From: Pseudoalteromonas tetraodonis
Lineage (GTDB): Bacteria > Pseudomonadota > Gammaproteobacteria > Enterobacterales > Alteromonadaceae
Direction: 5' to 3'
Length of the DNA stretch: 32,000 nucleotides
NCBI RefSeq assembly: GCF_002310835.1
Contig: NZ_CP011041.1
Span: forward strand, 2,760,001-2,792,000
The position numbers were made by a program, and so were the translations under genes. The notes below the pieces were generated by a model. It had not been told where the DNA came from. It worked only from the letters and a program-made list of their open reading frames with translations, and searched no databases. Position 1 is the stretch's first letter; each line of letters starts with the position of its first letter. Below are positions 9,980-23,927 of the stretch, in pieces.

Positions 9980-11152
9980 TTAATACAGCAAATAAGGCGC
10001 TCTTTGCTGTTTAAACTGTTTTAGCCCGGCTTGCCAACTTTGTTTGATTTCCTCAGCTGAGTGCCCTGCTTCTATGGCGAGCCTTAATTTATCAGTTCCT
10101 GCGAGCTTATCCATAAAGTCGGCACGTTCAAAAAACGGCTGTTTAGCCTGAGTCAGTTGCTGGTAAGCATTAATTAAATAATTTAAGTTTAAGCCTGTGG
10201 TATCACTATGGCGTAAATCAATCCCTTTCACCATTTGGTTTTTAAACTTTGGATTAAGCGCTGCGCCTTTTATTGAGCGAGGGGTAAAGCTAAAGTCCCC
10301 AAGTGCTACTGGTGAATAACCAATAACCTGAAATGCAAAGTCAGTTCCTCTACCTATGCTAACAGGAGTTGCCTCAAAAAAGCACAACGAGGGATACAGC
10401 GCTATTGATTGATCGTTGGGTAAATTAGGGCTTGGTTTTACCGGTAAACTATAACGACTGGTGCGGGTGTAGCCGGCAACAGGGATCACGTTTAGCTTTA
10501 AATCACGAGCCTGATTGATCCACCCCTCACCTTTGATCATGTTAGCAAGCTCGCCTACCGTCATACCATGCAGTACAGGGATTGGGTGCATACCCACAAA
10601 CGATTTAAACTTCGGTTCTAAAATTGGCCCGTCAATGTGGCTAATATTAGGATTTGGCCTATCAAGTACTATAAATTCAACACCCTGCTCGGCCGCGGCT
10701 TCCATCATGTAATGCATAGAGCTTATGTAGGTATAAAAACGTACGCCCACGTCTTGAATATCAAAAATTATCACATCAACATTTTGCAATGACTCGGGGG
10801 TTGGCTTTTTGTGTTTACCGTAAATAGAAATAAGCGCAATACCGGTTTTGCTATCAACGGCGTTTTGTACATGAGCACCGGCATCGTGATCGCCTCGAAA
10901 GCCATGCTCAGGTGCAAAAATTTTAGTGATGTTGATGTTTTTAGCCAACAAGCTATCAACTAAATGCGTTTGCCCCACAAGAGAGGTTTGGTTAACCACC
11001 AGCCCTACACGTTTGTTTTTTAATTGGGGTGCATACATAGCAAATTGCTCTGCACCTACGGCGATTGCATGTTTAGTCTCATTTGCATGTGTAGCAACGG
11101 TAAAAAGTGCACTTAGTATAAAAAAGAAGGTAAAAAACACGGTTTTAAACAT
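9980..11152 (-). CDS. namZ: DUF1343 family exo-beta-N-acetylmuramidase (NamZ/YbbC-like), secreted
   Basis: DUF1343 hallmarks are present (VGLVVNQTS, IFAPEHGFRGD, DIQDVGVRFYTYISSM). There is a signal peptide, MFKTVFFTFFFILSALFTVATHA. I prefer the ATG at 11152, which has AAGGA 9 nt upstream, over the ATG at 11179. Confidence 0.8.
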   Translation of the reverse strand: MFKTVFFTFFFILSALFTVATHANETKHAIAVGAEQFAMYAPQLKNKRVGLVVNQTSLVGQTHLVDSLLAKNINITKIFAPEHGFRGDHDAGAHVQNAVDSKTGIALISIYGKHKKPTPESLQNVDVIIFDIQDVGVRFYTYISSMHYMMEAAAEQGVEFIVLDRPNPNISHIDGPILEPKFKSFVGMHPIPVLHGMTVGELANMIKGEGWINQARDLKLNVIPVAGYTRTSRYSLPVKPSPNLPNDQSIALYPSLCFFEATPVSIGRGTDFAFQVIGYSPVALGDFSFTPRSIKGAALNPKFKNQMVKGIDLRHSDTTGLNLNYLINAYQQLTQAKQPFFERADFMDKLAGTDKLRLAIEAGHSAEEIKQSWQAGLKQFKQQRAPYLLY

Positions 11153-11227
11153 ACAGCAAGGTCCTTTTAAACAAGGCATTTAAAATAACACAGCTAAGTT
11201 TAAAGAGCAGCTTAGGTTTTAAGAATT

Positions 11228-11761
<534 letters not shown>

Positions 11762-11809
11762 GTAATAAAAATAAAACACCGAGCCTTTTGCAAGCGCAAT
11801 TTTTATATT

Positions 11810-11848
11810 GTAGGCGGGAGTTTACCTCGCGCAGGTTTTAGCAATGAG
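11810..11848 (-). repeat. Possible highly decayed tRNA-Arg-derived fragment fused to the R-unit
   Basis: gtaggcgggagtttacctcgcgcaggttttagcaatgag aligns loosely with the pseudo-tRNA-Arg copies at 20.4-21.2 kb (gagtgaacctccgaccgcttggttcgtagc). It occupies the same position relative to the R-unit as pseudo-copy 1 at 20430. Confidence 0.3.
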
Positions 11849-12140
11849 AAACTGTGTTTCTAACGTAAGTAAGCTCTACGTCCACATTGAAAATAGACGA
11901 TAATATTATCTCTAAAATATAGCTTGCTGGTGTTTAAATACTCATGGTGATTTTGAACGTCTCATTTACCCCTCATTCATTTCTTTTTGTGCATTTAAGT
12001 TTGTAAGGGCGTTATTCACAAAGAGATTAAGAGGCGCTGCGCTTTTAGAGAAGTGATTAAAACATTATAAATCAGAAGCTGCGCTTCTAACGTAAGCAAG
12101 CTCTCCGTCCACATTGATAATGTTGACGATGATGTGACTA
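11847..12140 (+). repeat. R-unit noncoding repeat, about 1.3 tandem copies (period ~227 bp)
   Basis: The core 11941-12063 is roughly 90 percent identical by eye to 20583-20705 and 20781-20897. The 5' motif aagctctacgtccacatt recurs at 11871 and 12098. Orientation matches the 20.5-kb copies. Confidence 0.85.
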
Positions 12141-12151
12141 AAAAACCACCG

Positions 12152-12946
12152 TTATTGTTTTATTAAGCTCTTTAAGTTTTTACTGTATGTTCTACTTACC
12201 TTGAGTGTTTTTTCGTTATCTAACACCGCCATATATTCAGAATTACGTAATGGGTTGAGCTGTTTAATGTGGCTTAAATTAACAATGGTTGATTTATGTA
12301 TGCGTAAGAAGTCTTCTGGCAGGGTATTTTTTTCAAGATCTTTTAAACGCGCACGCATTACATGGGTTTCAGCCAGTGTATGAACACACATATAATCGCC
12401 TGCGGCATCAATCCATAAAATATCTTTAAACGGAATTATTTGAATTGGGTTTTTAGCATCTTGGATGACTAAGTTTTCGGCTTCAAATTTATATTCTGAG
12501 TTTTTTGAGCTTTCTAATTCTTGATGTTCGTTTTCTATCAGCGATTGGTGTACTTCAATCAATGTATTTTTTCTGTGGAGTTGCTCTGTTTTTACTACTC
12601 TTTCTATGGCTTCTGCAAGGCGAGCTAACTTAACGGGCTTGAGTAAGTAGTCAAGGGCTCTTACCTCAAATGCTTTAACGGCATGCTGGTGAAACGCAGT
12701 AACAAAAATAACCGCTGGACAGCTTTCTGGTTGAAAATATTTAATTAGTTCAAAGCCTGATTTTGTTGGCATTTCTATATCTAGAAACACTAAATCAACG
12801 TCATGTTTGTTAAGTACTTTAATAGCGTCATCAACACTTTGTGCACTGCCAATCACTTCAATTTCAGCAAAGGCCTCTAAACGAATACGCAACCCTTCAA
12901 TAGCGCTGTATTCATCGTCAACAAGTAATGTTTTTAATTGAATCAT
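12152..12946 (-). CDS. Two-component response regulator, REC + LytTR DNA-binding domain
   Basis: 264 aa. REC motifs are present (LLVDDE, DLVFLDIEMP, LLKP), followed by a C-terminal LytTR domain (FLRIHKSTIVNLSHIKQL). Its start overlaps the kinase stop (TAATG). Confidence 0.9.
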   Translation of the reverse strand: MIQLKTLLVDDEYSAIEGLRIRLEAFAEIEVIGSAQSVDDAIKVLNKHDVDLVFLDIEMPTKSGFELIKYFQPESCPAVIFVTAFHQHAVKAFEVRALDYLLKPVKLARLAEAIERVVKTEQLHRKNTLIEVHQSLIENEHQELESSKNSEYKFEAENLVIQDAKNPIQIIPFKDILWIDAAGDYMCVHTLAETHVMRARLKDLEKNTLPEDFLRIHKSTIVNLSHIKQLNPLRNSEYMAVLDNEKTLKVSRTYSKNLKSLIKQ

Positions 12947-13998
12947 TATTGCAAACCATTAATAGGAAGAGAGATACAAAGCCATGCGCCGCCTGATTTG
13001 CCATTGCCTTTCTCAATGCGATGGCTATTTCCATACATTAATTTTAAGCGTTGCTCGCAATTAGCCAAGCCAATGCCCCTTTTCGATTTTTTATTATCGT
13101 CAAACCCTTTACCAGTATCTGCAACTTTAATGAGCAATGCGGTTTTTGTTTTTTCAACTTTAATTGTGATCACCATTTTTTGATCTGCGCGCATACCATG
13201 TTTTAACGCGTTTTCTACCAATGGTTGAATTAATAAAGAAGGTATTAATAAATCGTTGCAAGGTTCATCAACGTTAATATTAACCTCTAACCGGTCAGTA
13301 AATCGACATTGCTCTATATCTAAGTAGGTTTTTAAAATGGCAATTTCTTCTTTAATCGCTACTTTTTCAAGCGGATCGGTATACAAACTATGGCGCAGAA
13401 GATCACACAGCTTTTCGAGCATATTCACTGCCTGCACACTTTCTTTTTTTAAGATTAAGGTGCAAATAGCATTAATGCTGTTAAACATAAAGTGCGGATT
13501 AAGCTGATATCGAAGCATTTTAAGCTGTGATTCTTTAGCAAGGTGTGTCGCTTCTGCGGCTTTTTGAGTTTGCTCTAAATTGTCGAGATATATTTTGATC
13601 CCGTAATAAAAAGCAGTCCATGTTGAGAGCATAGTTAACGATGCAGACGTCCATGTACCAAAGTCAAACCACGACATGGAAAGCCACCAATTGCCATATA
13701 ACCACTGCAAAGACGCCCATTTAATTTGTGTCCAAATTAATGTGGCAGTTAACAGTAGCACCAGATGCAGTGCTATTTTAACTTTAATCCCTTGCCTATT
13801 TGAGCAGTTATAAGCCCTTCTTAAAAGTAAGGTGATTAAAAAGCCACACGCTACATCAATAACTAAATGCGGAATATGTATCGACCATGGCTCGTCGCTT
13901 GGTATTTTTATCATTAGCTCGGTCAGCATTGCATACACAATCCAACCGCAGCTCTGAAACAACCAGAAAAGATGACTTCTGGGATTTTTGGAATTCAA
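12946..13998 (-). CDS. Sensor histidine kinase, LytS/YehU-type (membrane N-terminus + His_kinase + HATPase_c)
   Basis: 350 aa with about 5 N-terminal TM helices. It carries the H-box LNPHFMFNSINAI, the N-box ENALKHG and a G-box DTGKGF. It is translationally coupled to the LytTR regulator. Confidence 0.85.
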   Translation of the reverse strand: MNSKNPRSHLFWLFQSCGWIVYAMLTELMIKIPSDEPWSIHIPHLVIDVACGFLITLLLRRAYNCSNRQGIKVKIALHLVLLLTATLIWTQIKWASLQWLYGNWWLSMSWFDFGTWTSASLTMLSTWTAFYYGIKIYLDNLEQTQKAAEATHLAKESQLKMLRYQLNPHFMFNSINAICTLILKKESVQAVNMLEKLCDLLRHSLYTDPLEKVAIKEEIAILKTYLDIEQCRFTDRLEVNINVDEPCNDLLIPSLLIQPLVENALKHGMRADQKMVITIKVEKTKTALLIKVADTGKGFDDNKKSKRGIGLANCEQRLKLMYGNSHRIEKGNGKSGGAWLCISLPINGLQ

Positions 13999-14019
13999 AT
14001 TAATACGTCCAACTTAAAA

Positions 14020-14052
14020 GGCAGTTGAATAGCTTACTTATTATCAACTGCC
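14020..14052 (-). terminator. Stem-loop with a T-run between GH3 and the kinase gene (terminator or attenuator)
   Basis: A 9-bp stem (GGCAGTTGA / TCAACTGCC) with a ~15-nt loop is followed on the minus strand by tttt. It ends only ~20 nt before the kinase start codon. Confidence 0.45.
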
Positions 14053-14062
14053 TTTGCCTTAT

Positions 14063-16591
14063 TTATTTTGAGCACGTGATTGATAATGCGTCATTATTAG
14101 GTTTTGCAGTCAACGCGATATCTGCAACTGCTAAACTTAAACGCTGAGCTGAAATACGAATTACATCTGACATAGATTGTTCAATCAGTTCGCTATCGGC
14201 GCAATTGAGTGCGATTGATAAAGTATGCCAGCGCTTATCTGCCATTGTTTTTTCAAACGATGAAAAATCAATACTTCTTAAACAGTTATCTAAATTACAC
14301 ATTACTTGTAACTGGGCACCTTGCTCTGGAGCTTTATCTAATCGCATTTTTAGTTCAAGGTAACCTGATTTAAATTTGCGTTCGAGTAGCGTAGGTTTTA
14401 AGTAACTTAGGCTAAGCGTTGCATCTGAGGATTGAGGTTGCCACTTAAACTGCCTTGCATCCTCTTGATACGATAAATTAACCGATTGCATTAACAAACT
14501 TTTTTTATCGCCACTGGTGGCCGATGAACCACTAGTTAAAACCTTTGCTGTTGTATCAGCTAACGCCCAAGTGAGATTTTTAGCTAAACTTTTTACAAAC
14601 AATGGGTGTGCATCGCTTTTAACGATTTTTTTAGGGCTTGTAGTTTCACTCACAACAGGTATGTTTACTGTGTCTTGATAAGTTAGCCCGTAGCCATAGG
14701 CAAAGAGCGGGTCGTAATTTACATCGCCTAAGTTAAGGCTAAATTGGTCGTCGTATTTAGGCCACGAAAAACTCAACTTACCGCTAAAATCAAACTGACT
14801 GTTACCGTTTTTATCTGTTAGTAATACGTCTGCAACTCCCTCACCCTCAGAGCCTGGTAACCATGCAGCAACAAAGGCATCTGATGCATTGAGTTCTTTA
14901 TTGACCCAAAGCGGACGACCACTTAAAAATACGGTGACTACCGGAATATTGTCTGCCTTAAGTTTTTTCAGCAGTGCAAGAGCGTGTTTGCTTTCATGCT
15001 GAAACTCTAGCATTTCTATATCACCAAACCACTCAGCATAAGGTTCTTCACCAATAACAACAATGGCTACATCTGGCTTGGTTTTATAGTCACCAGACTC
15101 ACTTAAGCTTATTTCACCGCCTGCTTTTAATACTTGCGACTTTAAACCTGTATAAATAGAGGTCGCATTTGGAAAGTCGCTATTAGTATTGTCTGTGCCC
15201 TGCCAAGAAACGCTCCAGCCACCGGCTTGCATATTGATTGCATTGGCGCCTTTACCGGCAACTAAGATGCGGCTATGCGCTTTAATTGGCAAAACGTTTT
15301 CGTTGTTTTTTAATAGAACGAGTGACTTGCGAACCGCTTCTCTTGCCAAAGTGCGATGCTCATTAGCGCCTAACCACTGCGGGTGTTGTGATTCAGGTCG
15401 CGCTGATGGTTTACCCTTTGTAAACACCCCCCAGCGGATTTTAGCCCTTAAAAAGCGTCTAACCGCATCGTTTATTCTTGATTCGGCTATTACCCTCTCT
15501 TTCACTTGCTTAACAGTATTATGATAAAACGCTTCAAAATGCTCTGGCACCATGATTACATCAACACCTGCGTTTATGGCTTGGGCGCATTGCTCTAAAT
15601 CGCAGCCTTCTACAAACTTATGCGCATTCCAGTCGCTTACTACAAACCCATCAAAACCAAGTTGGTTTTTAAGTACATCCGTTAATAAATGCTTATCGCC
15701 ATGTACACGTTTGCCATTCCAACTATTAAAGGATGCCATCACTGATTGCACGCCTTCATTAATAGCAGAAAAATAACCTGCGCTGTGAATATCTCTTAAT
15801 CCTTTTTCATCGATAAGCGTATTTCCGCGATCAACGCCTCGCTCAGTGCCACCATCACCCACAAAGTGCTTAGCGGTGGCAATACGGTTACTGCCTTTTA
15901 AAAAGTCAGCGCCTATGTCACCTTGAATACCGGTCACCATACTACCTGCATACAACCTAACTAATTCAGGGTCTTCTGAGTAACTTTCATAAGTTCTGCC
16001 CCAGCGATCATCTCTGACTACAGCAACAGTAGGCGCAAAACTCCATTCAATACCTGTGGCAGATACTTCCTTTGCTGTTGCTTGGCCTATGCGTTTAATT
16101 AAATCAGCATCATGCGCAGCTCCTAAGCCAATATTGTGCGGAAATAACGTAGCGCCATACACATTACTATGCCCATGCATGGCATCGGTTCCCCATACTG
16201 TCGGGATCGCAATACCATCTATGGTCGAGTCCATAGAGGCTAGGTACATTTCATCTGCGTATTTTAACCAAGTTGCTTGATCCGCTCGTTTATTTCCGTA
16301 AGGGGCAGTATTTCCGCCATTTAGATAAGAGCCAAATCCATACTTTTTCATTTGCTCTACACTTAAATAACCAATTTCTGGCTGGATCATTTGCGCAACT
16401 TTTTGCTCTAAAGTCATTGTTGCGAGCAGTTTATCAATCTGTTTTTCAACGGCTGGATCACGCTTAAGTTGCGTATTCACATAAGGCCAGTTAACTTGCT
16501 GATTGTCTGCACTCAATACATTTTGACAGTTGAACATGCCAAAAACAGGCAATAAGCAAAGTAATAATTTAGGGTGTTTTATTTTCGACAT
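14063..16591 (-). CDS. Glycoside hydrolase family 3 exo-beta-glucosidase / exo-1,3-1,4-beta-glucanase (ExoP-like, with a C-terminal extra domain)
   Basis: 842 aa with a signal peptide. GH3 motifs are present (AKHFVGDGGTERG, nucleophile region GFDGFVVSDWNA). The ~200-aa C-terminal extension matches the ~840-aa Pseudoalteromonas ExoP-type enzymes. Confidence 0.88.
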   Translation of the reverse strand: MSKIKHPKLLLCLLPVFGMFNCQNVLSADNQQVNWPYVNTQLKRDPAVEKQIDKLLATMTLEQKVAQMIQPEIGYLSVEQMKKYGFGSYLNGGNTAPYGNKRADQATWLKYADEMYLASMDSTIDGIAIPTVWGTDAMHGHSNVYGATLFPHNIGLGAAHDADLIKRIGQATAKEVSATGIEWSFAPTVAVVRDDRWGRTYESYSEDPELVRLYAGSMVTGIQGDIGADFLKGSNRIATAKHFVGDGGTERGVDRGNTLIDEKGLRDIHSAGYFSAINEGVQSVMASFNSWNGKRVHGDKHLLTDVLKNQLGFDGFVVSDWNAHKFVEGCDLEQCAQAINAGVDVIMVPEHFEAFYHNTVKQVKERVIAESRINDAVRRFLRAKIRWGVFTKGKPSARPESQHPQWLGANEHRTLAREAVRKSLVLLKNNENVLPIKAHSRILVAGKGANAINMQAGGWSVSWQGTDNTNSDFPNATSIYTGLKSQVLKAGGEISLSESGDYKTKPDVAIVVIGEEPYAEWFGDIEMLEFQHESKHALALLKKLKADNIPVVTVFLSGRPLWVNKELNASDAFVAAWLPGSEGEGVADVLLTDKNGNSQFDFSGKLSFSWPKYDDQFSLNLGDVNYDPLFAYGYGLTYQDTVNIPVVSETTSPKKIVKSDAHPLFVKSLAKNLTWALADTTAKVLTSGSSATSGDKKSLLMQSVNLSYQEDARQFKWQPQSSDATLSLSYLKPTLLERKFKSGYLELKMRLDKAPEQGAQLQVMCNLDNCLRSIDFSSFEKTMADKRWHTLSIALNCADSELIEQSMSDVIRISAQRLSLAVADIALTAKPNNDALSITCSK

Positions 16592-16641
16592 TTAAAACCT
16601 TCGAGATTAAATACTGTTTTATAAAATACGGACTGATTAAT

Positions 16642-17418
16642 TTAGTGTGGAATATATTCAATAAAATCATAATATGCCCATGAAGGGCTGTCGTAGTATT
16701 GACCCGGAAAGTAATTCCCTTGAGTCGAGTTGTCACCATTCCACTGGTTAATCATTATTTTTGTTTTATCAATTGGCCATGCATAGCCGGGAATTTCATT
16801 ATCGGCTATTACGCCATCCCCATTGTCTTTGTACATCACTCTAATTGTTTTCTCGTTTCCTTGTGAGTCGTACAGATACCAACGAATTGATGAGCTTGAC
16901 CAATCAAAGCCAATGGTTAATAAGTTTTCTCTGTAATCAAGCCCAAACTGGCTTAAATCGATATCCTTTTCCCAACTTTGATATGTGCCTCCTTGGGGCT
17001 GGTAAATCACATTGGTATGAACAACATTGCCTAAAGAAGGTAATAGTTCGATATCTATTTCTTGCCATGCGCGTCCTGGCGAATCCCACCATGAGGTATA
17101 AGTAAAAATAGAAGACACGGTACCGGCGATATTGCCCGACTTAACACTGCCTTGTACCTTACCAAAACTATAAAAGTGATTACTTTGCAGCTCAGCACAT
17201 GCACCTTGTGATAGAGAAAGGGTGATGCCGTGTTGACTTGGGTTAATCATTCTTGGGACAAATTCGCAGCCAAAAGGTGAGCCATTATCGCCACTACGTG
17301 CACTCCAAAGAGTCGTGTCAAATCCCCACGAAAAATCGTCTTTAAAATAGTTAGCGTATGTGGCGGGTGAAATAACTATAAGGCCAGCAACTAAGGTTGA
17401 AATTAACTTCGTTTTCAT
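16642..17418 (-). CDS. Glycoside hydrolase family 16 endo-beta-glucanase (lichenase-type catalytic motif), secreted
   Basis: 258 aa with a signal peptide (LIVISPATYA). The catalytic motif is WQEIDIELL (ExDxE without the extra residue seen in EIDIME-type laminarinases). It has beta-jelly-roll size. Confidence 0.8.
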   Translation of the reverse strand: MKTKLISTLVAGLIVISPATYANYFKDDFSWGFDTTLWSARSGDNGSPFGCEFVPRMINPSQHGITLSLSQGACAELQSNHFYSFGKVQGSVKSGNIAGTVSSIFTYTSWWDSPGRAWQEIDIELLPSLGNVVHTNVIYQPQGGTYQSWEKDIDLSQFGLDYRENLLTIGFDWSSSSIRWYLYDSQGNEKTIRVMYKDNGDGVIADNEIPGYAWPIDKTKIMINQWNGDNSTQGNYFPGQYYDSPSWAYYDFIEYIPH

Positions 17419-17443
17419 TATTAAATCCTTATTTAATCAAGCA

Positions 17444-17472
17444 CCTCCTACAGTACTTTAGCCTGTAGGAGG
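17444..17472 (-). terminator. Intercistronic 10-bp stem-loop downstream of the TonB-dependent receptor (weak terminator or RNA-stability element)
   Basis: CCTCCTACAG-tactttagc-CTGTAGGAGG. The downstream U-run on the minus strand is poor (tgcttgatt). Confidence 0.35.
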
Positions 17473-17491
17473 GTAACTTTTACTCGGTTAT

Positions 17492-20176
17492 TTAGAATGA
17501 AAAACCCGCTCTCATACCGTAGTATCTCGGCATACCAAAGCTGCCTTTTGGGATCCCCTTACCAGTATTATTCCAGTATTGAATAGTTTCATCTGAAGCA
17601 TTATTAACAAACACTTCTGCAAACCAGTTTTGTCCTTGCGGCTCATACTTAATAGAGGCGTTAAATACGGCAAACGCATCGCGGCTATCATCGATATATT
17701 TTGTTGCTTCATCTGGCACTTGAAAATCCATGTCATCTAAATGTTTATCAACATTCCATACCGTTGAGTACGACTCATCTTTCCAACTGGCATTTAACCA
17801 TGCGTGAACAAAACCATACTCTCCTAAGTTGAGTGTATGTGTGTAACTGATATTGGCGGTAAACTCAGGGGTCATTGCTAAATTATTCCCCTTAAGATTG
17901 GTAGCTAACAGGGTATTTTCAGGATCTTTTGATTCTTCATAAGAAATATCAAACAGATACTCCGCGTCGTAATCCCATTTAGTATTCCAATCTTCAGTAA
18001 CTTTTGCATCAGTCCACGTTACGTAACCACTAATTCGACCATTTGGATACGGCTTCCAATCAAACTCAAGCTCAATCCCTTTTATTGTTGAGCCAGGGAC
18101 ATTTTGTGTGTAGTAAGCTATAACTGGCTTGTTTTGAAAATCGAGTACAGGCTCGCCATTACCGTCTAAAACGGGAGAGCCATCTTCATCTTCTACCACA
18201 GATAAACGCTCTACGTTACCAATAGAGCCCACTGATGCGTATTGCATGTCGGTGTAATCTGTGTAGAAAAATGCGGCTTTTAGGTTTAATGAGTTATCAA
18301 AAAAGCTCGATTTAGCACCCAATTCCCATGTTAGTACTTCTTCTGGGTCGAACTTGGTTTCAAAACGAGTAACGTCACCGGTTCTGTCATTTACCACTTC
18401 GTAAACATCACCAATACCACCGGCTTTAAAGCCACTGGCAAGATAGGTATAAACCATGGTTTCAGGTGAAATGTCATAATCTAAACCAACACGAAAATCA
18501 TGGTGTTTCCAACTTCCCTTATTGTCGTTTTCAAAGTATGACGCATAAATAGAAGGATCTTCGTAGTAGTCAACAGGAAGGTTATTTAAATCAGTTCTAT
18601 TTAACCAACCTACGGCGCAGCCATCAGCATTAGAACAGCGATAGGTTTTTCCGCCTTTATCTTCTTTTGTTTCATCACTAAATCGATAGCCAAGTGTTAG
18701 GTGTAACTTTTCAGTTAAGTTGTATGTACCTTGACCAAATAATGCGAGGGCGTCGGTAGAACGATCGGGTTGATCCCAAAACGCTTTGTCATCCATAGGA
18801 TTATCGTAATAACCTAAGGTTTTTGTTCTTTCATGAAAGTAATTAATACCTGCAATCCAGATAAAGTCGCCATATTCATCAGATTGTATTTGCAGCTCAG
18901 TTGAAAAAGACTCTGCGCCAGTGCCGTCTAAAAAGTAAGTTGCGCCATCCCAAGGGTCTAAACCTACTTCACTATCTTGTGCTGAAGAGCGTTCCATATC
19001 TTCATAGCCCAATAACCAGACAAGTGAATATTCATCGTTTATGTTGTAATTAAGGGTGTTTCTTAAGTACGTGATATCTAAATTAAGCTTACCGGGCACA
19101 TTTACAACCGCCTGATAAGTATTATCGCTGGGTAAAAAGTTAGTGCAGTCTCCCCCTAGTTCAGCACTTCTGCCACGAATTTTATCGCAGTTAACTAAAT
19201 CTAGGTTGTTATTGCTGTCATTTACATACTTTTGAAAAACAGTGTGGTTTGAAAAATTGCCGTCCAAAGGCTCCCACAAGGTGCTAATTCTAAATGAATA
19301 TTCATCAGCATTATTGTAAAAATTGCTTTTATCAGCCGGTGTTAGCGCGCGAACTTTTTGCGCTTCTGGATCTGTGCCAGCGCCATCTATCCACCAGTTT
19401 TCTCGTTGGGTAATTGTTTGACCCACGCCTTGATAAGAATCTTCAGAGATTACTGGCGCATTAAGAATATCGTCGCTTAAGCGTCTTGAGTCATATTGGT
19501 TAGGATCGTAATACCCTTCTAAATAAGAATCCCGTTTCAAGCCTTTTCCTGAAAACCTAACGGCAAATTCATCATTAATAGGAATATTTAAGACTGCATC
19601 AATATTTTTACTATTAAAGTTTCCCGCTTCAATACTGACGTTGCCATATAAACCGGTAAACTCTGGTTTTGCTGAAATAACATTAATACTACCCACCGTT
19701 GAGTTACGACCAAATAGAGTGCCTTGTGGGCCCCTTAGAGCTTCAACTCTGTCTATGTCGTACATCAATGCAAGGGCACCTTGCATACGTGGTGAGTAAA
19801 TACCATCAAGGTGAACACCCACAGCCGGATCGCCAAGCTCAGTAATATTAGTAGAGCGTACACCTCGCATTGAAATAACCGGCGCAGCTTGATCTGTTGC
19901 AGTTGAAATATCTAAGCCAGGGACTAAGTTAGCAATATCCTTAACGCTATTAACACCGTTTCTTTTCAGCTCGGCTTCAGTTAATGCTGTAATGGCAACA
20001 GGTGTTTCCATTAATCTTGTTTTTCGCTTAGTTGCTGTTACCGAAATGATTTCTAATGAAACTGTTTCTTTTTCTGACGCTTGCTCTTTATCCGTAGAAG
20101 CTTCTTGAGCATTCAATGGCATTGAACAAGCCAACGCAACGGCTATTGATAGTGCTGTTTTATTTATTGTGTGCAT
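17492..20176 (-). CDS. TonB-dependent outer-membrane receptor
   Basis: 894 aa. It has a signal peptide (ACSMPLNAQEA), a plug domain (ISVTATKR...TPVAITALT...RGPQGTLFGRNSTVGSINV), beta-barrel repeats and a terminal aromatic residue (RAGFSF). Confidence 0.9.
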   Translation of the reverse strand: MHTINKTALSIAVALACSMPLNAQEASTDKEQASEKETVSLEIISVTATKRKTRLMETPVAITALTEAELKRNGVNSVKDIANLVPGLDISTATDQAAPVISMRGVRSTNITELGDPAVGVHLDGIYSPRMQGALALMYDIDRVEALRGPQGTLFGRNSTVGSINVISAKPEFTGLYGNVSIEAGNFNSKNIDAVLNIPINDEFAVRFSGKGLKRDSYLEGYYDPNQYDSRRLSDDILNAPVISEDSYQGVGQTITQRENWWIDGAGTDPEAQKVRALTPADKSNFYNNADEYSFRISTLWEPLDGNFSNHTVFQKYVNDSNNNLDLVNCDKIRGRSAELGGDCTNFLPSDNTYQAVVNVPGKLNLDITYLRNTLNYNINDEYSLVWLLGYEDMERSSAQDSEVGLDPWDGATYFLDGTGAESFSTELQIQSDEYGDFIWIAGINYFHERTKTLGYYDNPMDDKAFWDQPDRSTDALALFGQGTYNLTEKLHLTLGYRFSDETKEDKGGKTYRCSNADGCAVGWLNRTDLNNLPVDYYEDPSIYASYFENDNKGSWKHHDFRVGLDYDISPETMVYTYLASGFKAGGIGDVYEVVNDRTGDVTRFETKFDPEEVLTWELGAKSSFFDNSLNLKAAFFYTDYTDMQYASVGSIGNVERLSVVEDEDGSPVLDGNGEPVLDFQNKPVIAYYTQNVPGSTIKGIELEFDWKPYPNGRISGYVTWTDAKVTEDWNTKWDYDAEYLFDISYEESKDPENTLLATNLKGNNLAMTPEFTANISYTHTLNLGEYGFVHAWLNASWKDESYSTVWNVDKHLDDMDFQVPDEATKYIDDSRDAFAVFNASIKYEPQGQNWFAEVFVNNASDETIQYWNNTGKGIPKGSFGMPRYYGMRAGFSF

Positions 20177-20393
20177 GTTTGACCTTTTGGATGTGTGTGT
20201 AAACGTTAAACTTTGTTACTTTTATTTAACAGTCTCATAGTATCCATATCGATTATTTTTATTACTAGTCAAATACGCCAAGACGAGTTAGATATAATAC
20301 AAACCGAAATCACCTTCTAATTTTTGAAACTAAAGCCAGATAAACATCAAGTATTTTCCTCGTAGTTTAGCTTTTTGACTCTATTTCAGACAC

Positions 20394-20418
20394 AAAAAAA
20401 CCGACTTAGTGTCGGCTT
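20394..20418 (-). terminator. Rho-independent terminator attached to pseudo-tRNA unit 1
   Basis: The minus strand reads aag-CCGAC-actaa-GTCGG-ttttttt. The stem is the same as in the terminator that follows the functional tRNA-Arg array. Confidence 0.6.
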
Positions 20419-20429
20419 ATTTATAAAAG

Positions 20430-20487
20430 CGGTAGACGCAGGATATCTCTTGTAAGGGTGAACCTATGACTGCCTGGTTCGTAGCTA
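20430..20487 (-). pseudogene. Decayed tRNA-Arg copy (psi-1), 3' two-thirds only
   Basis: cggtagacgcaggatatctcttgtaagggtgaacctatgactgcctggttcgtagctagag aligns to the antisense of tRNA-Arg (tggtgggcgcagg...cctccgaccgcctggttcgtagccagg). An insertion disrupts the T-arm. Confidence 0.6.
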
Positions 20488-20897
20488 GAGGAAACGGCAC
20501 ATCTACGTGAGCAAGCTCTTCGTCTACATTAAAACGTTGTGGTGATATTATTTATAGACCGTAGCTTACAGGCGTTTAAATACTCATGGTGATTTTGAAC
20601 TTCTCATTTACCCCTCTTTCATTTCTCTTTGTGCATTTAGGTTTTTAAGGGCGTTATTCATAAAAAGGTTACGAGGCGCTGCGCTTTTAGAGAAGTAATT
20701 AAAACTTTATAAGTCGCAAGCTCTACGTCTACATAAAAAGCTGCGGTGATATTATTTATAGACCGTAGCTTATAGGCTTTTAAATGGTGATTTTGAACTT
20801 CTCATTTACCCCTCTTTCATTTCTCTTTGTGCATTTAAGTTTTTAAGGGCGTTATTCATAAAAAGGTTACGAGGCGCTGCGCTTTTAGAGAAGTGAC
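20488..20897 (+). repeat. R-unit noncoding repeat, two tandem copies (period ~205 bp)
   Basis: aagctct(t/a)cgtctacat recurs at 20513 and 20718. The cores 20583-20705 and 20781-20897 are near-identical to each other and about 90 percent identical to 11941-12063. Confidence 0.9.
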
Positions 20898-20969
20898 TGA
20901 ATGGAAGATTTGGCAGTATGTATCATTAGGTTTAACTGATATCTGAAAGCTTTCTCAAATTTCAGACAT

Positions 20970-20994
20970 AAAAAAACCGACTTAATGTCGGCTT
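20970..20994 (-). terminator. Rho-independent terminator attached to pseudo-tRNA unit 2
   Basis: The minus strand reads aag-CCGAC-attaa-GTCGG-ttttttt, identical to the terminator at 21232-21256. Confidence 0.6.
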
Positions 20995-21005
20995 ATTTAT
21001 GAAAG

Positions 21006-21062
21006 TGGTGGGCGCAGGACGTATCTTCTAAGAGTGAACCTCCGACCGCTTGGTTCGTAGCT
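21006..21062 (-). pseudogene. Decayed tRNA-Arg copy (psi-2), 3' portion
   Basis: tggtgggcgcaggACGTATCTTCTAAGAGTGaacctccgaccgcttggttcgtagc. The acceptor 3' strand is intact, the T-arm is replaced or expanded, the anticodon stem is no longer complementary, and the 5' half is missing. Confidence 0.65.
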
Positions 21063-21096
21063 TGCTACTTTCCCATATTCACTTTATTTCAGGCAC

Positions 21097-21121
21097 AAAA
21101 AAACCGACTCAGTGTCGGCTT
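21097..21121 (-). terminator. Rho-independent terminator attached to pseudo-tRNA unit 3
   Basis: The minus strand reads aag-CCGAC-actga-GTCGG-ttttttt. Confidence 0.6.
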
Positions 21122-21132
21122 ATGTATGAAAG

Positions 21133-21212
21133 TGGTGAGCGCAGGACGTATCTTCTAAGAGTGAACCTCCGACTGCTTGGTTCGGAGTAGGTTACTCTAT
21201 CCACATCCACGC
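21133..21212 (-). pseudogene. Decayed near-full-length tRNA-Arg copy (psi-3)
   Basis: tggtgagcgcaggacgtatcttctaagagtgaacctccgactgcttggttcggagtaggttactctatccacatccacgc. It carries the same T-arm insertion as psi-2. The anticodon and D regions are mutated (ttcggag instead of ttcgtag). Confidence 0.65.
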
Positions 21213-21231
21213 TTTGATTTATTTCAGGCAC

Positions 21232-21256
21232 AAAAAAACCGACTTAATGTCGGCTT
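21232..21256 (-). terminator. Rho-independent terminator of the functional tRNA operon
   Basis: The minus strand reads aag-CCGAC-attaa-GTCGG-ttttttt, immediately 3' of the last tRNA-Arg. Confidence 0.75.
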
Positions 21257-21267
21257 ATTTATGAAAG

Positions 21268-21344
21268 TGGTGGGCGCAGGAGGATTCGAACCTCCGACCG
21301 CCTGGTTCGTAGCCAGGTACTCTATCCAGCTGAGCTATGCGCCC
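21268..21344 (-). tRNA. tRNA-Arg (anticodon ACG), copy 3 of 3
   Basis: The reverse complement is GGGCGCATAGCTCAGCTGGATAGAGTACCTGGCTACGAACCAGGCGGTCGGAGGTTCGAATCCTCCTGCGCCCACCA. It folds as a cloverleaf (7-bp acceptor, CCTGG/CCAGG anticodon stem, loop CTACGAA, encoded CCA). It closely resembles E. coli argV-type tRNA. Confidence 0.95.
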
Positions 21345-21387
21345 ACTTTCATATTTACTTATTTAAACTCTAAGTGAGAGTTGAAAG

Positions 21388-21464
21388 TGGTGGGCGCAGG
21401 AGGATTCGAACCTCCGACCGCCTGGTTCGTAGCCAGGTACTCTATCCAGCTGAGCTATGCGCCC
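21388..21464 (-). tRNA. tRNA-Arg (anticodon ACG), copy 2 of 3
   Basis: The 77-nt sequence is identical to 21268-21344. Confidence 0.95.
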
Positions 21465-21522
21465 ACTTTCATTTTGCTTGTTTTAACTCTAAGCAGAGCG
21501 TTCTCTAAAAGAGAGCAAAGTA

Positions 21523-21599
21523 TGGTGGGCGCAGGAGGATTCGAACCTCCGACCGCCTGGTTCGTAGCCAGGTACTCTATCCAGCTGAGCTATGCGCCC
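21523..21599 (-). tRNA. tRNA-Arg (anticodon ACG), copy 1 of 3
   Basis: The 77-nt sequence is identical to 21268-21344. Confidence 0.95.
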
Positions 21600-21633
21600 A
21601 TACTTTATTTTACAAGATGCGCCATTTAAAAAA

Positions 21634-21726
21634 TGGTGGAGAGGGAGGGATTCGAACCCTCGATAGAGCTACAAACTCTATACTCCCTTAGCAGGGGAGC
21701 TCCTTCGGCCACTCGGACACCTCTCC
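21634..21726 (-). tRNA. serV: tRNA-Ser (anticodon GCT), long variable arm; first gene of a serV-argV-type operon
   Basis: The reverse complement is GGAGAGGTGTCCGAGTGGCCGAAGGAGCTCCCCTGCTAAGGGAGTATAGAGTTTGTAGCTCTATCGAGGGTTCGAATCCCTCCCTCTCCACCA (93 nt). The anticodon loop is CTGCTAA, the class II variable stem is TAGAG...CTCTA, and CCA is encoded. Confidence 0.93.
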
Positions 21727-21740
21727 GTCTTGTGGGGCGT

Positions 21741-21768
21741 ATAATAAAGATTTCAGAAAATATGTCAA
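21741..21768 (-). promoter_or_regulatory. Sigma-70 promoter of the tRNA operon (stable-RNA type)
   Basis: The minus strand reads TTGACA (21768-21763), a 16-nt spacer, TATTAT (21746-21741), then a GC-rich discriminator acgcccc. It lies ~15 nt upstream of the tRNA-Ser 5' end. A 7-bp inverted repeat (cactttt ctgac aaaagtg) lies just upstream at 21771-21789. Confidence 0.6.
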
Positions 21769-21854
21769 ACACTTTTCTGACAAAAGTGACTATATGGCTA
21801 TAGATTGCACACATGCCTGGTTTTAAAGTGTAATTAGTTTGAAAAATAATCAGG

Positions 21855-22037: not shown

Positions 22038-22335
22038 ATTATTTCTCTAAGTCCTTTAGAAATTTTTATTTTTTACGACTAAGAATGACCGTGTATAAAT
22101 TTCGGCCACATTTTAGCTAAAAAATTCACATAAATACAACATAATGTTTAAAAAACAATCATACCAAAAAGTTATAACACTGCTGTAATGTTGCTAAGCA
22201 GTCAAGCAACTTTATGATAATGAAGCTGAATTAAAGATTAATTTACTTTTATACTTACACTTAATTATCAGTGTAGTACTTATTAATTAAAAGCCCTAAT
22301 GTGAAGTTTAGGCAATGTCTCACAAACAATAGGGC

Positions 22336-22363: not shown

Positions 22364-22391
22364 GATAATTTTTTAGTTTATTCCTTCAAGC

Positions 22392-23927
22392 TTAGTCTGC
22401 TTGTGGGCGCATATGCGGGAATAAAATAACATCTTTGATAGTTGATGAGTCAGTAAACAACATGACTAAACGGTCAATACCAATCCCTTCACCGGCTGTT
22501 GGTGGTAAACCATACTCTAGCGCGCGAATGTAGTCTTCGTCGTAGTGCATTGCTTCATCATCACCTGCGTCTTTTTCTTCAACTTGGCGAGAAAAACGCT
22601 CAGCTTGATCTTGTGCATCATTAAGCTCAGAGAAACCATTTGCAAGCTCACGGCCACCAACAAAGAATTCAAAGCGGTCAGTTACAAATGGGTTTTCGTC
22701 GTTACGACGTGCAAGTGGCGATACTTCCCACGGATACCCTGTGATAAATGTAGGTTGGATAAGCATATGCTCAGCCGTCTCTTCAAATATTTCACATAAA
22801 AACTTACCCGGGCCCCATACGCAGTTTTCAGGAATTTTAACATGCACTTGTTTAGCGTACGCTTTTAATTCTTCAAAGTGGTTTTCTGGGTCGTTAAATA
22901 CCGCAGCATCAAACTCAGGGTTATATTTTAAGATTGCGTCGCTCATGCTTAAACGTGTGAACGGTTGACCAAAGTCATACTCTACTGAATCAATCACTTC
23001 ACCGTTTTCATCTTTAGTGGTATTAACAACGATTGGGCTGCCCAGTACGTTAGTTGCAACTGTACGTAGCATGTCTTCGGTGATGTTCATTAAATCAATG
23101 TAGTCAGCGTATGCTTGGTAGAACTCAATCATGGTGAATTCTGGGTTGTGACGCGTTGATAACCCTTCGTTACGGAAGTTACGGTTAATTTCGAATACAC
23201 GGTCAAAACCACCTACTACTAAACGCTTTAAGTAAAGCTCAGGCGCAATACGTAAGTACATGTCGATATCAAGCGCATTATGATGAGTTACGAATGGACG
23301 CGCAGATGCACCACCAGGAATAACCTGTAGCATTGGCGTTTCTACTTCCATAAAATCGCGGTCTGCTAAAAAGCGACGAATACCTTCAACCACTTGTGAG
23401 CGAATGCGGAATGTTTCACGCGTTGCTTCGTTAGTAATTAAATCAACATAACGCTGACGGTATTTTGTTTCTTGATCCGATAGGCCATGGAATTTTTCAG
23501 GAAGTGGACGAAGTGACTTAGTCAGTAGTTCGTACTCAGCCATATCTACGTATAAATCGCCTTTACCCGATTTATTAAGCGGCCCTTTAACACCAATAAT
23601 ATCGCCAATATCAAGCTGGCCATATTTTGCTTTTAAATCTTTTTGTACGTCTTTTGATGCATAAACTTGTACACGGCCTTTCATATCTTGAATAGACATA
23701 AACGGACCACGCTTAGCAAGAATACGACCTGCAATCGATACTACGTGCTGTAATTCGATTAATTCTTCTTTACTCTTATCACCAAACTCAGCCTGCAAAT
23801 CTGCCGTGTAATGCTCACGACGGAATTGGTTTGGATGACCGTTGGCTGGGCAATTTGCGCGAATAGCGTCTAATTTGCCGCGACGCTCAGCGATTAACTT
23901 ATTTTCGTCTTGGATTTGATCAGTCAT
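22392..23927 (-). CDS. lysS: Lysine--tRNA ligase (class II)
   Basis: 511 aa. Class II motifs are present ([29 protein letters not shown]). It lies directly downstream of prfB, as in E. coli. Confidence 0.97.

What the first reader, a model, noticed from the sequence alone, without database searches (positions are those of the whole stretch)
11810..21344. Beta-glucan utilisation + LytTR two-component module bracketed by direct repeats (tRNA-Arg fragment + R-unit) next to a tRNA-Arg array
**Seen directly**
- The ~8 kb block 12152-20176 (regulator, kinase, GH3, GH16, TonB-dependent receptor, all on the minus strand) is flanked by same-orientation copies of the R-unit.
- The flanking copies are at 11847-12140 on the left and 20488-20897 on the right. 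Their ~120-bp cores are roughly 90 percent identical by eye.
- On both sides the R-unit is preceded by a fragment resembling the antisense of tRNA-Arg. This is clear at 20430-20487 and weak at 11810-11848.
- The whole structure lies immediately 3' of three functional tRNA-Arg(ACG) genes.

**Interpretation**
- tRNA 3' ends are classic integration sites, and islands end in a direct repeat of the tRNA 3' part.
- The module may therefore be an old tRNA-Arg-associated islet that has lost its integrase.
- Whatever its origin, the ~200-bp direct repeats make it prone to RecA-mediated excision, deletion or amplification as a unit.
- The heptamer microsatellite abuts the left junction.
Basis: partly seen in the sequence, partly recalled or inferred. 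Interest (0 to 1): 0.65.

Follow-up and report, generated by a model that had tools for sequence, protein, structure and literature searches.

The report
Strain-variable laminarin gene islet between repeats
An 8-kb beta-glucan (laminarin) uptake and degradation cassette sits in the repeat-rich tail of a tRNA operon in some strains of one Pseudoalteromonas species and is missing in others; it appears to be gained and lost by ordinary homologous recombination between local repeats, not by a tRNA-targeting integrase.

Summary
The main observation holds. The block RR-HK-GH3-GH16-TBDR (12152-20176) is flanked by same-orientation R units: 11838-12137 on the left and 20491-20900 on the right. It lies next to three tRNA-Arg(ACG) genes, and a clear pseudo-tRNA-Arg plus terminator sits at 20383-20493.

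The "weak" left tRNA fragment (11810-11848) is not homologous to tRNA-Arg (p = 0.25-0.8). It is half of a dispersed GTAG-headed REP palindrome.

- L058 and L060 have lysS-tRNA-Ser-tRNA-Arg array-pseudo-tRNAs-namZ with no module.
- L118, about 96% identical to the window in both flanks, has one R unit in place of the module.

The module keeps constant ends but has different neighbours in other Pseudoalteromonas species, on chromosome II or a 660-kb replicon in the two complete assemblies, and its closest relatives belong to another clade.

R units are a local tandem array built on a dispersed, strictly intergenic, REP-containing mosaic repeat (136 core copies retrieved). Their copy number on each side varies between strains.

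There is no integrase, no tRNA-derived att repeat and no GC deviation. Verdict: a real islet that is present in some strains and absent in others, most likely exchanged by homologous recombination. It is a new member of a known kind and of moderate interest.

The parts
9980..11179 (-). namZ (exo-beta-N-acetylmuramidase). This is the left anchor gene of the conserved synteny. The true start is probably about 8 codons inside the ORF.
   Evidence: Pfam NamZ_N and NamZ_C. Homologues are 390-391 aa and cover 98% of the query.
11228..11761 (.). (GGTCAGC) x 76.3, a perfect heptamer array about 50 nt upstream of namZ. It is not part of the module indel, because the empty allele L118 has it too.
   Evidence: Runs counted in relatives: 3 (L170), 10 (L153), 13 (L001, L118, L165), absent in L053, L058 and L160. 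The same count gives 75 in the window.
11810..11834 (+). Half of a GTAG-headed REP palindrome (GTAGGCGGGAGTTTACCTCGCGCA).
   Evidence: Found 12 times in the fetched DNA. The full palindrome is present in L056, L143 and L144. It is not similar to tRNA-Arg.
11838..12064 (+). Left R unit. It contains the D8 element (hairpin AGAAAC-TGT-GTTTCT plus a REP hairpin), a spacer, and the core of about 110 nt.
12065..12137 (+). Truncated second left unit (D8' plus the first 13 nt of spacer). The module joins here.
   Evidence: Direct repeat D8 at 11838-11894 and 12065-12121, 84% identical. The junction is the same in L001, L153 and L160.
12152..20176 (-). Five-gene beta-1,3-glucan module: TonB-dependent receptor, GH16, GH3, LytS-type histidine kinase, LytTR response regulator.
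   Evidence: Pfam. The module is conserved as a unit in about 50 species.
20177..20312 (-). The module's own conserved promoter/leader region. Homology to module copies at other loci ends at about 20312 on this side and at about 12150 on the other.
20383..20493 (-). Pseudo-tRNA-Arg (3' part, with an altered, lengthened T-loop) plus an intrinsic terminator at 20398-20418. It lies between the module and the right R array.
   Evidence: (D2).
20491..20900 (+). Right R array: unit A 20491-20712 and unit B 20713-20900, 92% identical to each other.
20901..20958 (.). 'Tail' sequence joining the R array to the pseudo-tRNA array. It is present at the empty sites L118, L053 and L058.
20959..21196 (-). 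Two further pseudo-tRNA-Arg plus terminator units (20959-21069 and 21086-21196).
21268..21726 (-). The tRNA-Ser(GCT) and three tRNA-Arg(ACG) genes, with a terminator at 21236-21256.
22392..23927 (-). lysS, the right anchor gene of the conserved synteny (xerD-dsbC-recJ-prfB-lysS).
   Evidence: Pfam. Colinear with L058, L060 and L170.

Best explanation
What it is. The ancestral Pseudoalteromonas arrangement is recJ-prfB-lysS, then tRNA-Ser, tRNA-Arg x 3-4, then pseudo-tRNA-Arg/terminator units, a short repeat-rich spacer, and namZ. In the lineage of this window, an 8.16-kb beta-1,3-glucan (laminarin) cassette has been placed into that spacer. The cassette runs from about 12150 to about 20312 and carries TBDR-GH16-GH3 plus a LytS/LytTR two-component pair with its own promoter region. 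The insertion point lies inside or next to a local tandem array of R units.

Origin of the cassette. It has different neighbours in every other Pseudoalteromonas species compared. It appears to be a xenologous copy acquired from another clade of the genus (inferred).

What the R units are. Each unit combines a GTAG-headed REP hairpin, a second small hairpin, a spacer, and a highly conserved core. The core belongs to a dispersed, strictly intergenic repeat family. This makes them mosaic repeats of the BIME type.

How it behaves. The cassette ends up bracketed by direct R copies about 83% identical over about 220 nt. It is now a presence/absence polymorphism within a single species-level population.

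Mechanism (inferred, not shown):
- Interconversion of occupied and empty alleles is by homologous recombination.
- One route is recombination between the flanking R units: deletion or circle formation, and re-integration.
- A second route is recombination between the pseudo-tRNA units.
- A third route is replacement of the whole allele after DNA uptake, using R units, pseudo-tRNA units or the flanking genes as homology arms.

No site-specific recombinase is involved, and the tRNA genes are bystanders. The intrinsic terminator at 20398-20418 shields the cassette from tRNA-operon read-through (inferred).
For: Shown:
1. Empty sites. L058 (CP041330) and L060 (P. translucida) have lysS-tRNA-Ser-tRNA-Arg-pseudo-tRNAs-namZ. 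The window is colinear with L058 up to 11223 and from 20926 onward; only about 83 nt lie between those points in L058.
2. Polymorphism within a species. L118 (empty) is 96.3% and 96.0% identical to the window in the left and right flanks. L170 (occupied) is 96.8% and 97.9% identical. A second lineage also has both states: L160 occupied, L053 empty.
3. The same left junction (D8'-GTTG.CG.TG-...AAAAAACCACCG-RR stop) occurs in the window, L001, L153 and L160, which indicates a single origin.
4. The cassette is the only syntenic block among 11 other Pseudoalteromonas species loci. It lies on a 660-kb 'plasmid' in L005 and on chromosome 2 in L006. A TBDR+GH16 laminarin cluster, PUL5, is reported on chromosome II and in 47 of 52 genomes (PMC6262041).
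5. Incongruent relationships. GH3 is 82-86% identical to P. rhizosphaerae, P. prydzensis and P. mariniglutinosa but only 64% to P. fuliginea. Yet the P. fuliginea NamZ is 80% identical, and every species-level name among the listed NamZ hits (all at 79% or more) is P. translucida, nigrifaciens, distincta, fuliginea, issachenkonii or aliena.
6. The module is more similar between strains than the flanks are: 99.0% against 96.8-97.9% for L170, and 88% against 77-82% for L001.
7. The locus R units are homologous over their full length only to one another. Other family members share only the core.
8. R-unit copy number varies: 0, 1 or 2 full cores on the left, and 0, 1 or 2 on the right. Pseudo-tRNA units adjoining the arginine tRNA genes vary from 0 to 4.
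9. Recombination traces. L153's left unit carries the window's right-type 3' variants. L118's single unit is left-type through the 5' half of the core, then right-type.
10. R cores: 136 matches retrieved, none of 129 non-duplicate copies inside an ORF of 150 aa or more. The D8 hairpin belongs to a GTAG-headed REP family with compensatory stem variants.
Against: - The direction of each event (gain or loss) cannot be resolved. A single ancestral R unit split by Campbell-type integration and a deletion chimera look the same.
- The right junction is not a simple split of one R unit. A pseudo-tRNA plus terminator (20383-20493) lies between the cassette and the right array, so at least two steps are needed.
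- L160 is occupied yet has no right R array, and L001, L163 and L164 lack a full left core. R-R bracketing is therefore not required for occupancy.
- The left and right R units are only about 83% identical, which is a poor RecA substrate.
- No circular product or deletion junction has been observed directly.
- The claim of xenologous origin rests on identity comparisons, not on a phylogeny. I could not check whether the same genome also holds a native copy on chromosome II.
Confidence: 0.72

Rival explanations
1. The block is a classical tRNA-Arg-targeted genomic island, integrated by a tyrosine integrase at the 3' end of a tRNA-Arg gene. It later lost its integrase, and the tRNA-like fragments on both sides are the att repeats.
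For: The block lies next to a tRNA-Arg array. A tRNA-Arg 3' fragment lies at the proximal boundary, 20383-20493. Empty sites exist.
Against: - None of the five ORFs has an integrase domain, and no intergenic stretch inside 11224-20925 exceeds about 1 kb.
- The distal 'fragment' is a REP half, not tRNA-like.
- Identical pseudo-tRNA/terminator units occur in tandem at empty sites in L058, L060, L053 and L118, so they predate the insertion and are independent of it.
- The cassette ends about 10 nt after the RR stop codon and 135 nt before the TBDR start, with no extra island DNA.
- GC content equals that of the flanks.
- The only Phage_integrase-family gene nearby is the conserved xerD at the position matching 27804-28730. 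It is present at empty sites as well.
Confidence: 0.05
2. REP- or transposase-mediated capture. The cassette was captured into, and is mobilised from, the REP/BIME-like array by a REP-associated (RAYT / IS200-IS605-like) or other transposase. This would explain why the same 8.16-kb block with constant ends sits in a different context in almost every species.
For: - Constant block ends with unrelated flanks in 11 species.
- GTAG-headed REP hairpins lie directly at the left junction.
- BIMEs are reported to capture gene fragments and to be mobilisable (PMC2817692).
- IS elements occur at the locus in some strains: IS4 in L060 and IS3 in L166.
Against: - No REPs or direct repeats flank the module at its other locations.
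- The constant ends may simply mark the limit of selective constraint (the promoter and the stop codon) in diverged intergenic DNA.
- No RAYT or transposase gene lies in or beside the block in the window.
- Such enzymes are not known to move 8-kb cargo.
Confidence: 0.08
3. The cassette is ancestral at this site for the whole species complex. All empty alleles are independent deletions through R x R or pseudo-tRNA x pseudo-tRNA recombination. The repeats act only as deletion substrates, and there is no ongoing gain.
For: - L001, a different species, has the occupied site with the same junction, so the insertion is old.
- L118's single unit has the left-then-right pattern expected of a deletion chimera.
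- L160's missing right array fits a deletion between pseudo-tRNA units.
Against: - L053 (empty) keeps the 'tail' that its occupied counterpart L160 lacks, so L053 cannot derive from an L160-type allele by simple deletion.
- The module is more similar between strains than the flanks are, which points to lateral spread.
- More distant relatives are all empty.
Confidence: 0.15

Closest known systems
REP / BIME repeats (repetitive extragenic palindromes in mosaic tandem arrays; Nunvar et al. 2010, PMC2817692; GTAG-tagged palindromes, PMC3733652)
   Same: - Strictly extragenic.
- GTAG/GTGG-headed imperfect palindromes, with compensatory changes that keep the stem.
- Modular head-to-tail arrays whose length differs between strains.
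- Mosaic combination of several repeat modules.
   Different: - The most conserved module is not a palindrome. It is a stretch of about 45 nt, TTATTCACAAAGAGGTTAAGAGGCGCTGCGCTTTTAGAG.
- The REPs within the array all point the same way rather than alternating.
- The unit is long (198-227 nt).
- No cognate RAYT gene was looked for.
- No description for Pseudoalteromonas was found in the held library, and there is no Rfam match.
tRNA-associated genomic islands / islets (integrase-mediated)
   Same: - Strain-variable block next to a tRNA gene cluster.
- Empty-site alleles exist.
- The cargo is an accessory catabolic function.
   Different: - No integrase.
- No tRNA-derived att repeat at the distal end.
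- The insertion is not in a tRNA gene but 0.9 kb downstream of the last tRNA-Arg gene, beyond several terminators.
- Native GC content.
Pseudoalteromonas laminarin cluster 'PUL5' (TBDR + GH16 on chromosome II, in 47 of 52 genomes; PMC6262041)
   Same: TonB-dependent receptor followed directly by a GH16 endo-beta-1,3-glucanase. In the loci fetched here these are always followed by GH3 and, with few exceptions, by the LytS/LytTR pair.
   Different: - Here the cluster lies among the core genes xerD-dsbC-recJ-prfB-lysS, next to a tRNA operon. Exact copies of the module's proteins lie on contigs of up to 3.4 Mb.
- It is only 61-78% identical at protein level to the cluster of P. fuliginea, whose NamZ is 80% identical.
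- Function was not tested.
E. coli tyrT operon distal repeats (rtT/tpr region: tandem units each ending in a tRNA 3' fragment). This comparison is recalled from my own knowledge, not from a tool.
   Same: A tRNA operon followed by tandem units that each contain a degenerate tRNA 3' portion, generated by unequal recombination.
   Different: Different tRNA and different sequence. Each unit here has its own intrinsic terminator. No Rfam rtT hit.

Membership tests
Integrase-mediated tRNA-targeted genomic island | A tyrosine (or serine) integrase gene, or its remnant, at one end of the island. | tested here: not met
   Pfam on all five ORFs shows none. The intergenic stretches inside the block are about 1 kb or less and are filled with repeats. 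The xerD homologue at the position matching 27804-28730 is conserved at empty sites.
Integrase-mediated tRNA-targeted genomic island | Direct repeat of the tRNA 3' end (attL/attR) at both island boundaries. | tested here: not met
   The right boundary has a pseudo-tRNA (none of 2000 shuffles reached its score). The left candidate gives p = 0.25-0.82 and is a REP half. Pseudo-tRNA units also occur at empty sites.
Integrase-mediated tRNA-targeted genomic island | Presence/absence polymorphism with an intact empty site. | tested here: met
   L058, L060, L053, L118 and L134.
Integrase-mediated tRNA-targeted genomic island | Atypical base composition. | tested here: not met
   GC is 0.37-0.44 inside the block and 0.35-0.47 outside.
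REP / BIME | Extragenic location. | tested here: met
   None of 129 non-duplicate R-core copies lies inside an ORF of 150 aa or more.
REP / BIME | Imperfect palindrome with a conserved GTAG/GTGG head, and compensatory mutations that preserve the stem. | tested here: met
   - D8 on the minus strand reads GTAGACGTAGAGCTTGCTTACGT.
- Family stem variants include GCGTG/CACGC, GCGCG/CGCGC, GCGCT/AGCGC and ACGTA/TACGT.
- The REP half at 11810 has a full palindrome elsewhere.
REP / BIME | Tandem modular arrays whose length differs between strains. | tested here: met
   0-2 units on each side of the cassette in different strains.
REP / BIME | REPs in alternating orientation within the array. | tested here: not met
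   All D8 REPs in the left and right arrays point the same way.
REP / BIME | High copy number per genome and a cognate RAYT gene. | not testable with these tools
   No whole genome was available. 99 metagenome stretches hold the core, with up to 5 copies per 14 kb. RAYT was not searched.
Pseudoalteromonas laminarin PUL5 | TBDR next to a GH16 beta-1,3-glucanase, conserved across the genus. | tested here: met
   PMC6262041.
Pseudoalteromonas laminarin PUL5 | Location on chromosome II and vertical inheritance. | tested here: not met
   Here the cluster lies between lysS/tRNA genes and namZ, colinear with the 3.38-Mb chromosome of L058. Identity to P. fuliginea is only 61-78%.

The most novel reading that the evidence does not exclude
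The REP-containing R arrays are not passive homology. On this reading they are the recognition and capture sites of a REP-associated transposase-like system, which moves a whole 8-kb polysaccharide-utilisation cassette with precise ends between replicons and strains. That would explain why this cassette is the only syntenic block among Pseudoalteromonas species. A weaker version is that the near-invariant 45-nt R 'head' is a functional RNA or protein-binding element. It usually lies 3' of a co-oriented gene and is preceded in each local unit by a sigma-70-like site.
Probability: 0.07. Interest if true: 0.75.

Novelty: new member of a known kind. Interest (0 to 1): 0.35.

Why it matters
- It gives a concrete case, resolved at population level, of how a marine heterotroph gains or loses a glycan-utilisation cassette without any mobile-element machinery. 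The repeat-rich tail of a tRNA operon acts as the landing pad.
- Laminarin is a major ocean carbon pool. Strain-level presence or absence of an extra uptake and degradation module could affect niche partitioning within a species.
- It documents a Pseudoalteromonas mosaic intergenic repeat family (the R core plus GTAG-type REPs). This family breaks short-read assemblies and could serve as a strain-typing marker.
- None of this overturns current understanding.

Tried and rejected
- **Rfam.** A permissive scan of 10900-22400 gave no family for the R units or the pseudo-tRNAs. Only the four tRNAs and chance hits appeared.
- **R unit as a structured RNA.** Minimum free energy z-scores were +1.96 on the plus strand and -0.07 on the minus strand, so this was rejected.
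- **R unit as a small-protein gene.** A 20-codon ORF on the plus strand (MVILN...) has no Shine-Dalgarno sequence, and a 6-nt deletion abuts its ATG in unit B. A 7-codon ORF on the minus strand does not keep its stop codon. Both were read directly and dropped.
- **Left tRNA fragment.** My by-eye alignment looked suggestive, but it failed the shuffle test and is explained by REP copies.
- **Direct repeats or tRNAs flanking the module in other species.** None were found.
- **Compositional anomaly.** None.
- **Direction of the event from diagnostic sites in R units.** A first 8-sequence alignment looked interleaved. With 21 units it resolves to a single left-to-right switch, but this still cannot separate insertion from deletion.
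- **Pseudo-tRNA units as a structured RNA.** The RNAalifold consensus was only -1.46 kcal/mol, with one covarying pair, so this was not supported.
- **Literature on Pseudoalteromonas REP/BIME and on tandem tRNA pseudogenes.** Nothing specific was found.


Full report
**Anatomy of the window**

All relevant genes lie on the minus strand.

| Coordinates | Feature |
|---|---|
| 9980-11179 | namZ |
| 11228-11761 | perfect (GGTCAGC) x 76.3 array |
| 11810-11834 | 25-nt GTAG-headed REP half |
| 11838-12064 | one full R unit |
| 12065-12137 | truncated R unit |
| 12152-12946 | LytTR response regulator |
| 12946-13998 | LytS-type histidine kinase |
| 14063-16591 | GH3 |
| 16642-17418 | GH16 |
| 17492-20176 | TonB-dependent receptor |
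| 20177-20312 | the receptor operon's conserved upstream region |
| 20383-20493 | pseudo-tRNA-Arg with intrinsic terminator |
| 20491-20900 | two tandem R units |
| 20901-20958 | 58-nt 'tail' |
| 20959-21196 | two more pseudo-tRNA/terminator units |
| 21268-21599 | three tRNA-Arg(ACG) |
| 21634-21726 | tRNA-Ser(GCT) |
| 22392 onward | lysS, then prfB |

**Checking the observation**

- The direct repeats are real. The left and right units align at 82-84% over about 220 nt, and their 118-nt cores at 92-97%.
- The right-hand tRNA-like fragment is real. It aligns with tRNA-Arg through the anticodon stem, variable region, T arm and acceptor 3' strand, and none of 2000 shuffles reached its score.
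- The left-hand 'weak' fragment is not tRNA-like. Its local alignment score does not differ from shuffles (p = 0.25 against tRNA-Arg, 0.82 against the right pseudo-tRNA).
Eight of these are at unrelated loci, several as the left arm of a complete palindrome ending in ...CCCGCCTAC.
- Left/right homology extends only about 10 nt beyond the R unit (GGTTTTAGC against GGTTCGTAGC).

**Comparative genomics: the module**

- A GH3-anchored scan of one genome per species found the same five-gene order (the GH16 gene was not detected in about a third of the loci) in about 50 species. These include Pseudoalteromonas, Rheinheimera, Alishewanella, Idiomarina, Catenovulum and Alteromonas.
- Only one species representative, Pseudoalteromonas sp. 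APC 3691 (L001), has namZ beside the module.
- Among 11 other Pseudoalteromonas loci compared, the roughly 8.2-kb module is the only block shared even at translated level. The flanks differ in almost every species pair.
- No tRNA genes or flanking direct repeats occur at those other locations.
- Homology to those copies starts 135 nt upstream of the receptor ATG (about 20312) and stops about 10 nt after the regulator stop codon (about 12150).
- In two complete assemblies the module lies on chromosome 2 or on a 660-kb replicon. This agrees with the published laminarin 'PUL5', which lies on chromosome II and is present in 47 of 52 genomes (PMC6262041).

**Comparative genomics: the site**

- In L058 (CP041330, a 3.38-Mb chromosome) and L060 (P. 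translucida KMM 520) the order is xerD-dsbC-recJ-prfB-lysS, tRNA-Ser, tRNA-Arg x 3-4, pseudo-tRNA/terminator x 2-4, a short spacer, then namZ.
- The window is colinear with L058 up to 11223 and again from 20926. Window positions 11224-20925 replace about 83 nt of L058.

A pattern scan for the R core in metagenome contigs, together with exact-protein look-ups, gave much closer relatives.

| Locus | State | Left R | Right R | Other features | Identity to window |
|---|---|---|---|---|---|
| L118 | empty | one R unit in total | | heptamer array (13 copies counted) | flanks 96.3% / 96.0% |
| L170 | occupied | 2 | 1 | no further pseudo-tRNA units beside the tRNA-Arg genes | flanks 96.8% / 97.9%, module 99.0% |
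| L171 | occupied | 2 | 2 | three further pseudo-tRNA units | |
| L163, L164, L001 | occupied | 0 full cores | | | |
| L160 | occupied | partial R unit of the L053 type | none | | left flank 90.0% |
| L053 | empty | same partial R unit | | NamZ 92% identical to the window's; L160's is 93% | |

Presence or absence is therefore polymorphic within at least two closely related lineages. The left junction sequence is the same in every occupied allele in which it was read: the window, L001, L153 and L160.

**What the R units are**

- At this locus the units are homologous over their whole 200-227 nt only to each other and to their orthologues. They are therefore a local tandem array that has been split, not independent insertions.
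- Their core of about 95-110 nt belongs to a dispersed family. There are 99 metagenome stretches and 136 matches, often several per contig. Within the core, a stretch of about 45 nt is nearly invariant: TTATTCACAAAGAGGTTAAGAGGCGCTGCGCTTTTAGAG.
- None of 129 non-duplicate copies lies in an ORF of 150 aa or more. Eighty per cent lie 3' of a co-oriented gene.
- In different copies the head is joined to different upstream modules, including GTAG-headed palindromes.
- The D8 element of each local unit, read on the minus strand, is GTAG-ACGTA-GAGCTTGCT-TACGT. This REP type occurs elsewhere with compensating stem variants. It matches the REP/BIME architecture described by Nunvar et al. (PMC2817692) and by the study of GTAG-tagged palindromes (PMC3733652).
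- The units are not thermodynamically unusual as RNA and match no Rfam family.
- Each unit has a weak sigma-70-like site on the plus strand. I do not rely on this.

**Evidence that the repeats recombine**

- Copy numbers differ between strains.
- L153's left unit carries the CATAAAAAGGTTACGAGG variant. In the window that variant marks the right units.
- L170's second left unit is a hybrid of two spacer types.
- The single unit of the empty allele L118 is left-type through D8, the spacer and the 5' half of the core. Its spacer is identical to that of L170's second left unit. It then switches to right-type (TTTAGG...) and runs into the tail.
- That single switch is what R x R recombination predicts, in either direction: deletion, or Campbell-type integration of a circle carrying one R unit.

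**Evidence on origin**

- The window's flanks group with the named species P. translucida, nigrifaciens, distincta, fuliginea, issachenkonii and aliena; every NamZ hit listed is at least 79% identical.
- Its module is 82-86% identical (GH3) to P. rhizosphaerae, P. prydzensis and P. mariniglutinosa, but only 64% to P. fuliginea and sp. TB64. That is no closer than to Rheinheimera.
- Between strains, the module is consistently more similar than the namZ-side flank.
- I therefore infer acquisition of a xenologous copy, followed by lateral spread through homologous exchange. This is an inference from identities, not from trees.

**Why not an integrase island**

- There is no integrase domain and no room for one.
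- There is no distal tRNA repeat.
- Pseudo-tRNA/terminator units are a conserved feature of the operon tail at empty sites.
- GC content matches the flanks.
- The nearby xerD is the conserved housekeeping gene.

**What remains unresolved**

- The first insertion needed more than one step, because a pseudo-tRNA/terminator sits between the cassette and the right R array.
- L160 shows the cassette joined directly to the pseudo-tRNA array. This could be an earlier state, or a deletion between pseudo-tRNA units.
- The direction of individual events, and any role for a REP-associated transposase, cannot be decided with these data.

**Verdict**

This is a real, well-delimited islet that is present in some strains and absent in others. 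It lies in a repeat-rich tRNA-operon tail, is bracketed by BIME-like direct repeats, and is most likely exchanged by homologous recombination. It is a new member of a known kind, and of moderate interest.

Noticed in passing
window 11228-11761; L170, L153, L001, L118, L165: The (GGTCAGC)n array about 50 nt upstream of namZ is hypervariable. The regex count gives 75 consecutive copies in the window (Tandem Repeats Finder gives 76.3), 13 in L001, L118 and L165, 10 in L153 and 3 in L170. It is absent in L053, L058 and L160. It lies where the namZ promoter should be. The same heptamer sits next to a REP half and an R core at an unrelated locus (L107).
   Followed up: partly
window 11835-11841; L153, L001, L053, L160: A second heptamer microsatellite, (AGGTTTT)n, sits at the junction between the REP half and the R unit. 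Runs counted: 1 copy in the window, 6 in L001, 7 in L160, 8 in L053 and 10 in L153. In the window an 8-nt AGGTTTTA repeat brackets the segment 11225-11834, which L053 lacks.
   Followed up: partly
window 20383-20493, 20959-21196; L058, L060, L053, L118, L134, L142, L160: The pseudo-tRNA-Arg units share a lengthened T-loop region (GGAGGTTCACTCTTAnAAGATACGTCC). Their 3' 45 nt are about 90-99% conserved per column, even in P. translucida, whose flanks are only 76-84% identical. In L142 and L118 some units sit between functional tRNA genes without a terminator, and their anticodon-like stem shows compensating changes. No stable consensus RNA fold was found (-1.46 kcal/mol).
   Followed up: partly
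L001 1-130 (minus strand): In Pseudoalteromonas sp. APC 3691, the sequence that follows the R-array tail, where the window has a terminator, looks like a group II intron 3' end (domain V-like GAGCCGTATACGAGGCCCGTACGTACGGTTC). The contig ends there.
   Followed up: no
L166 1246-4811; L060 8485-9782: IS elements lie at the same spacer in some strains. In a TARA scaffold, an IS3-family transposase plus Fic and HTH genes lie directly left of the left R unit. In P. translucida, an IS4 lies between the pseudo-tRNA array and namZ.
   Followed up: no
window 8309-11179 against L001, L053, L058, L118: namZ and the adjacent beta-lactamase-family gene are mosaic. In L001 they are 79-80% identical at protein level, while the neighbouring Na+/H+ antiporter is 95% and the cassette 89-98%. 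The 61 nt just upstream of namZ and the 86 nt after the heptamer array are 97-99% identical. This suggests fine-scale recombination breakpoints around namZ.
   Followed up: partly
L056 8904-10001 and 4100-4450: In GCA_018402495, namZ (90% identical) lies next to petABC-sspAB instead of the tRNA operon. The intergenic DNA there is packed with other repeat families: CTCTGTG.../CACAGAG... units, CCTTTAA microsatellites, and 23S-rRNA-IVP-like small ORFs.
   Followed up: no
window 23954-24832: The prfB ORF is listed as 292 aa, while relatives' gene calls give 365 aa. This is consistent with the well-known programmed +1 frameshift of prfB.
   Followed up: no
window 12133-12160; L160 10800-10830: The 3' end of the response-regulator transcript can form a hairpin between the junction linker (CGGTGGT) and the truncated R spacer. 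The pairing partner is ACCACCG in L160 and AUCAUCG in the window, where the pairs are kept through G-U. This may be a 3' stabiliser or terminator created by the junction.
   Followed up: no
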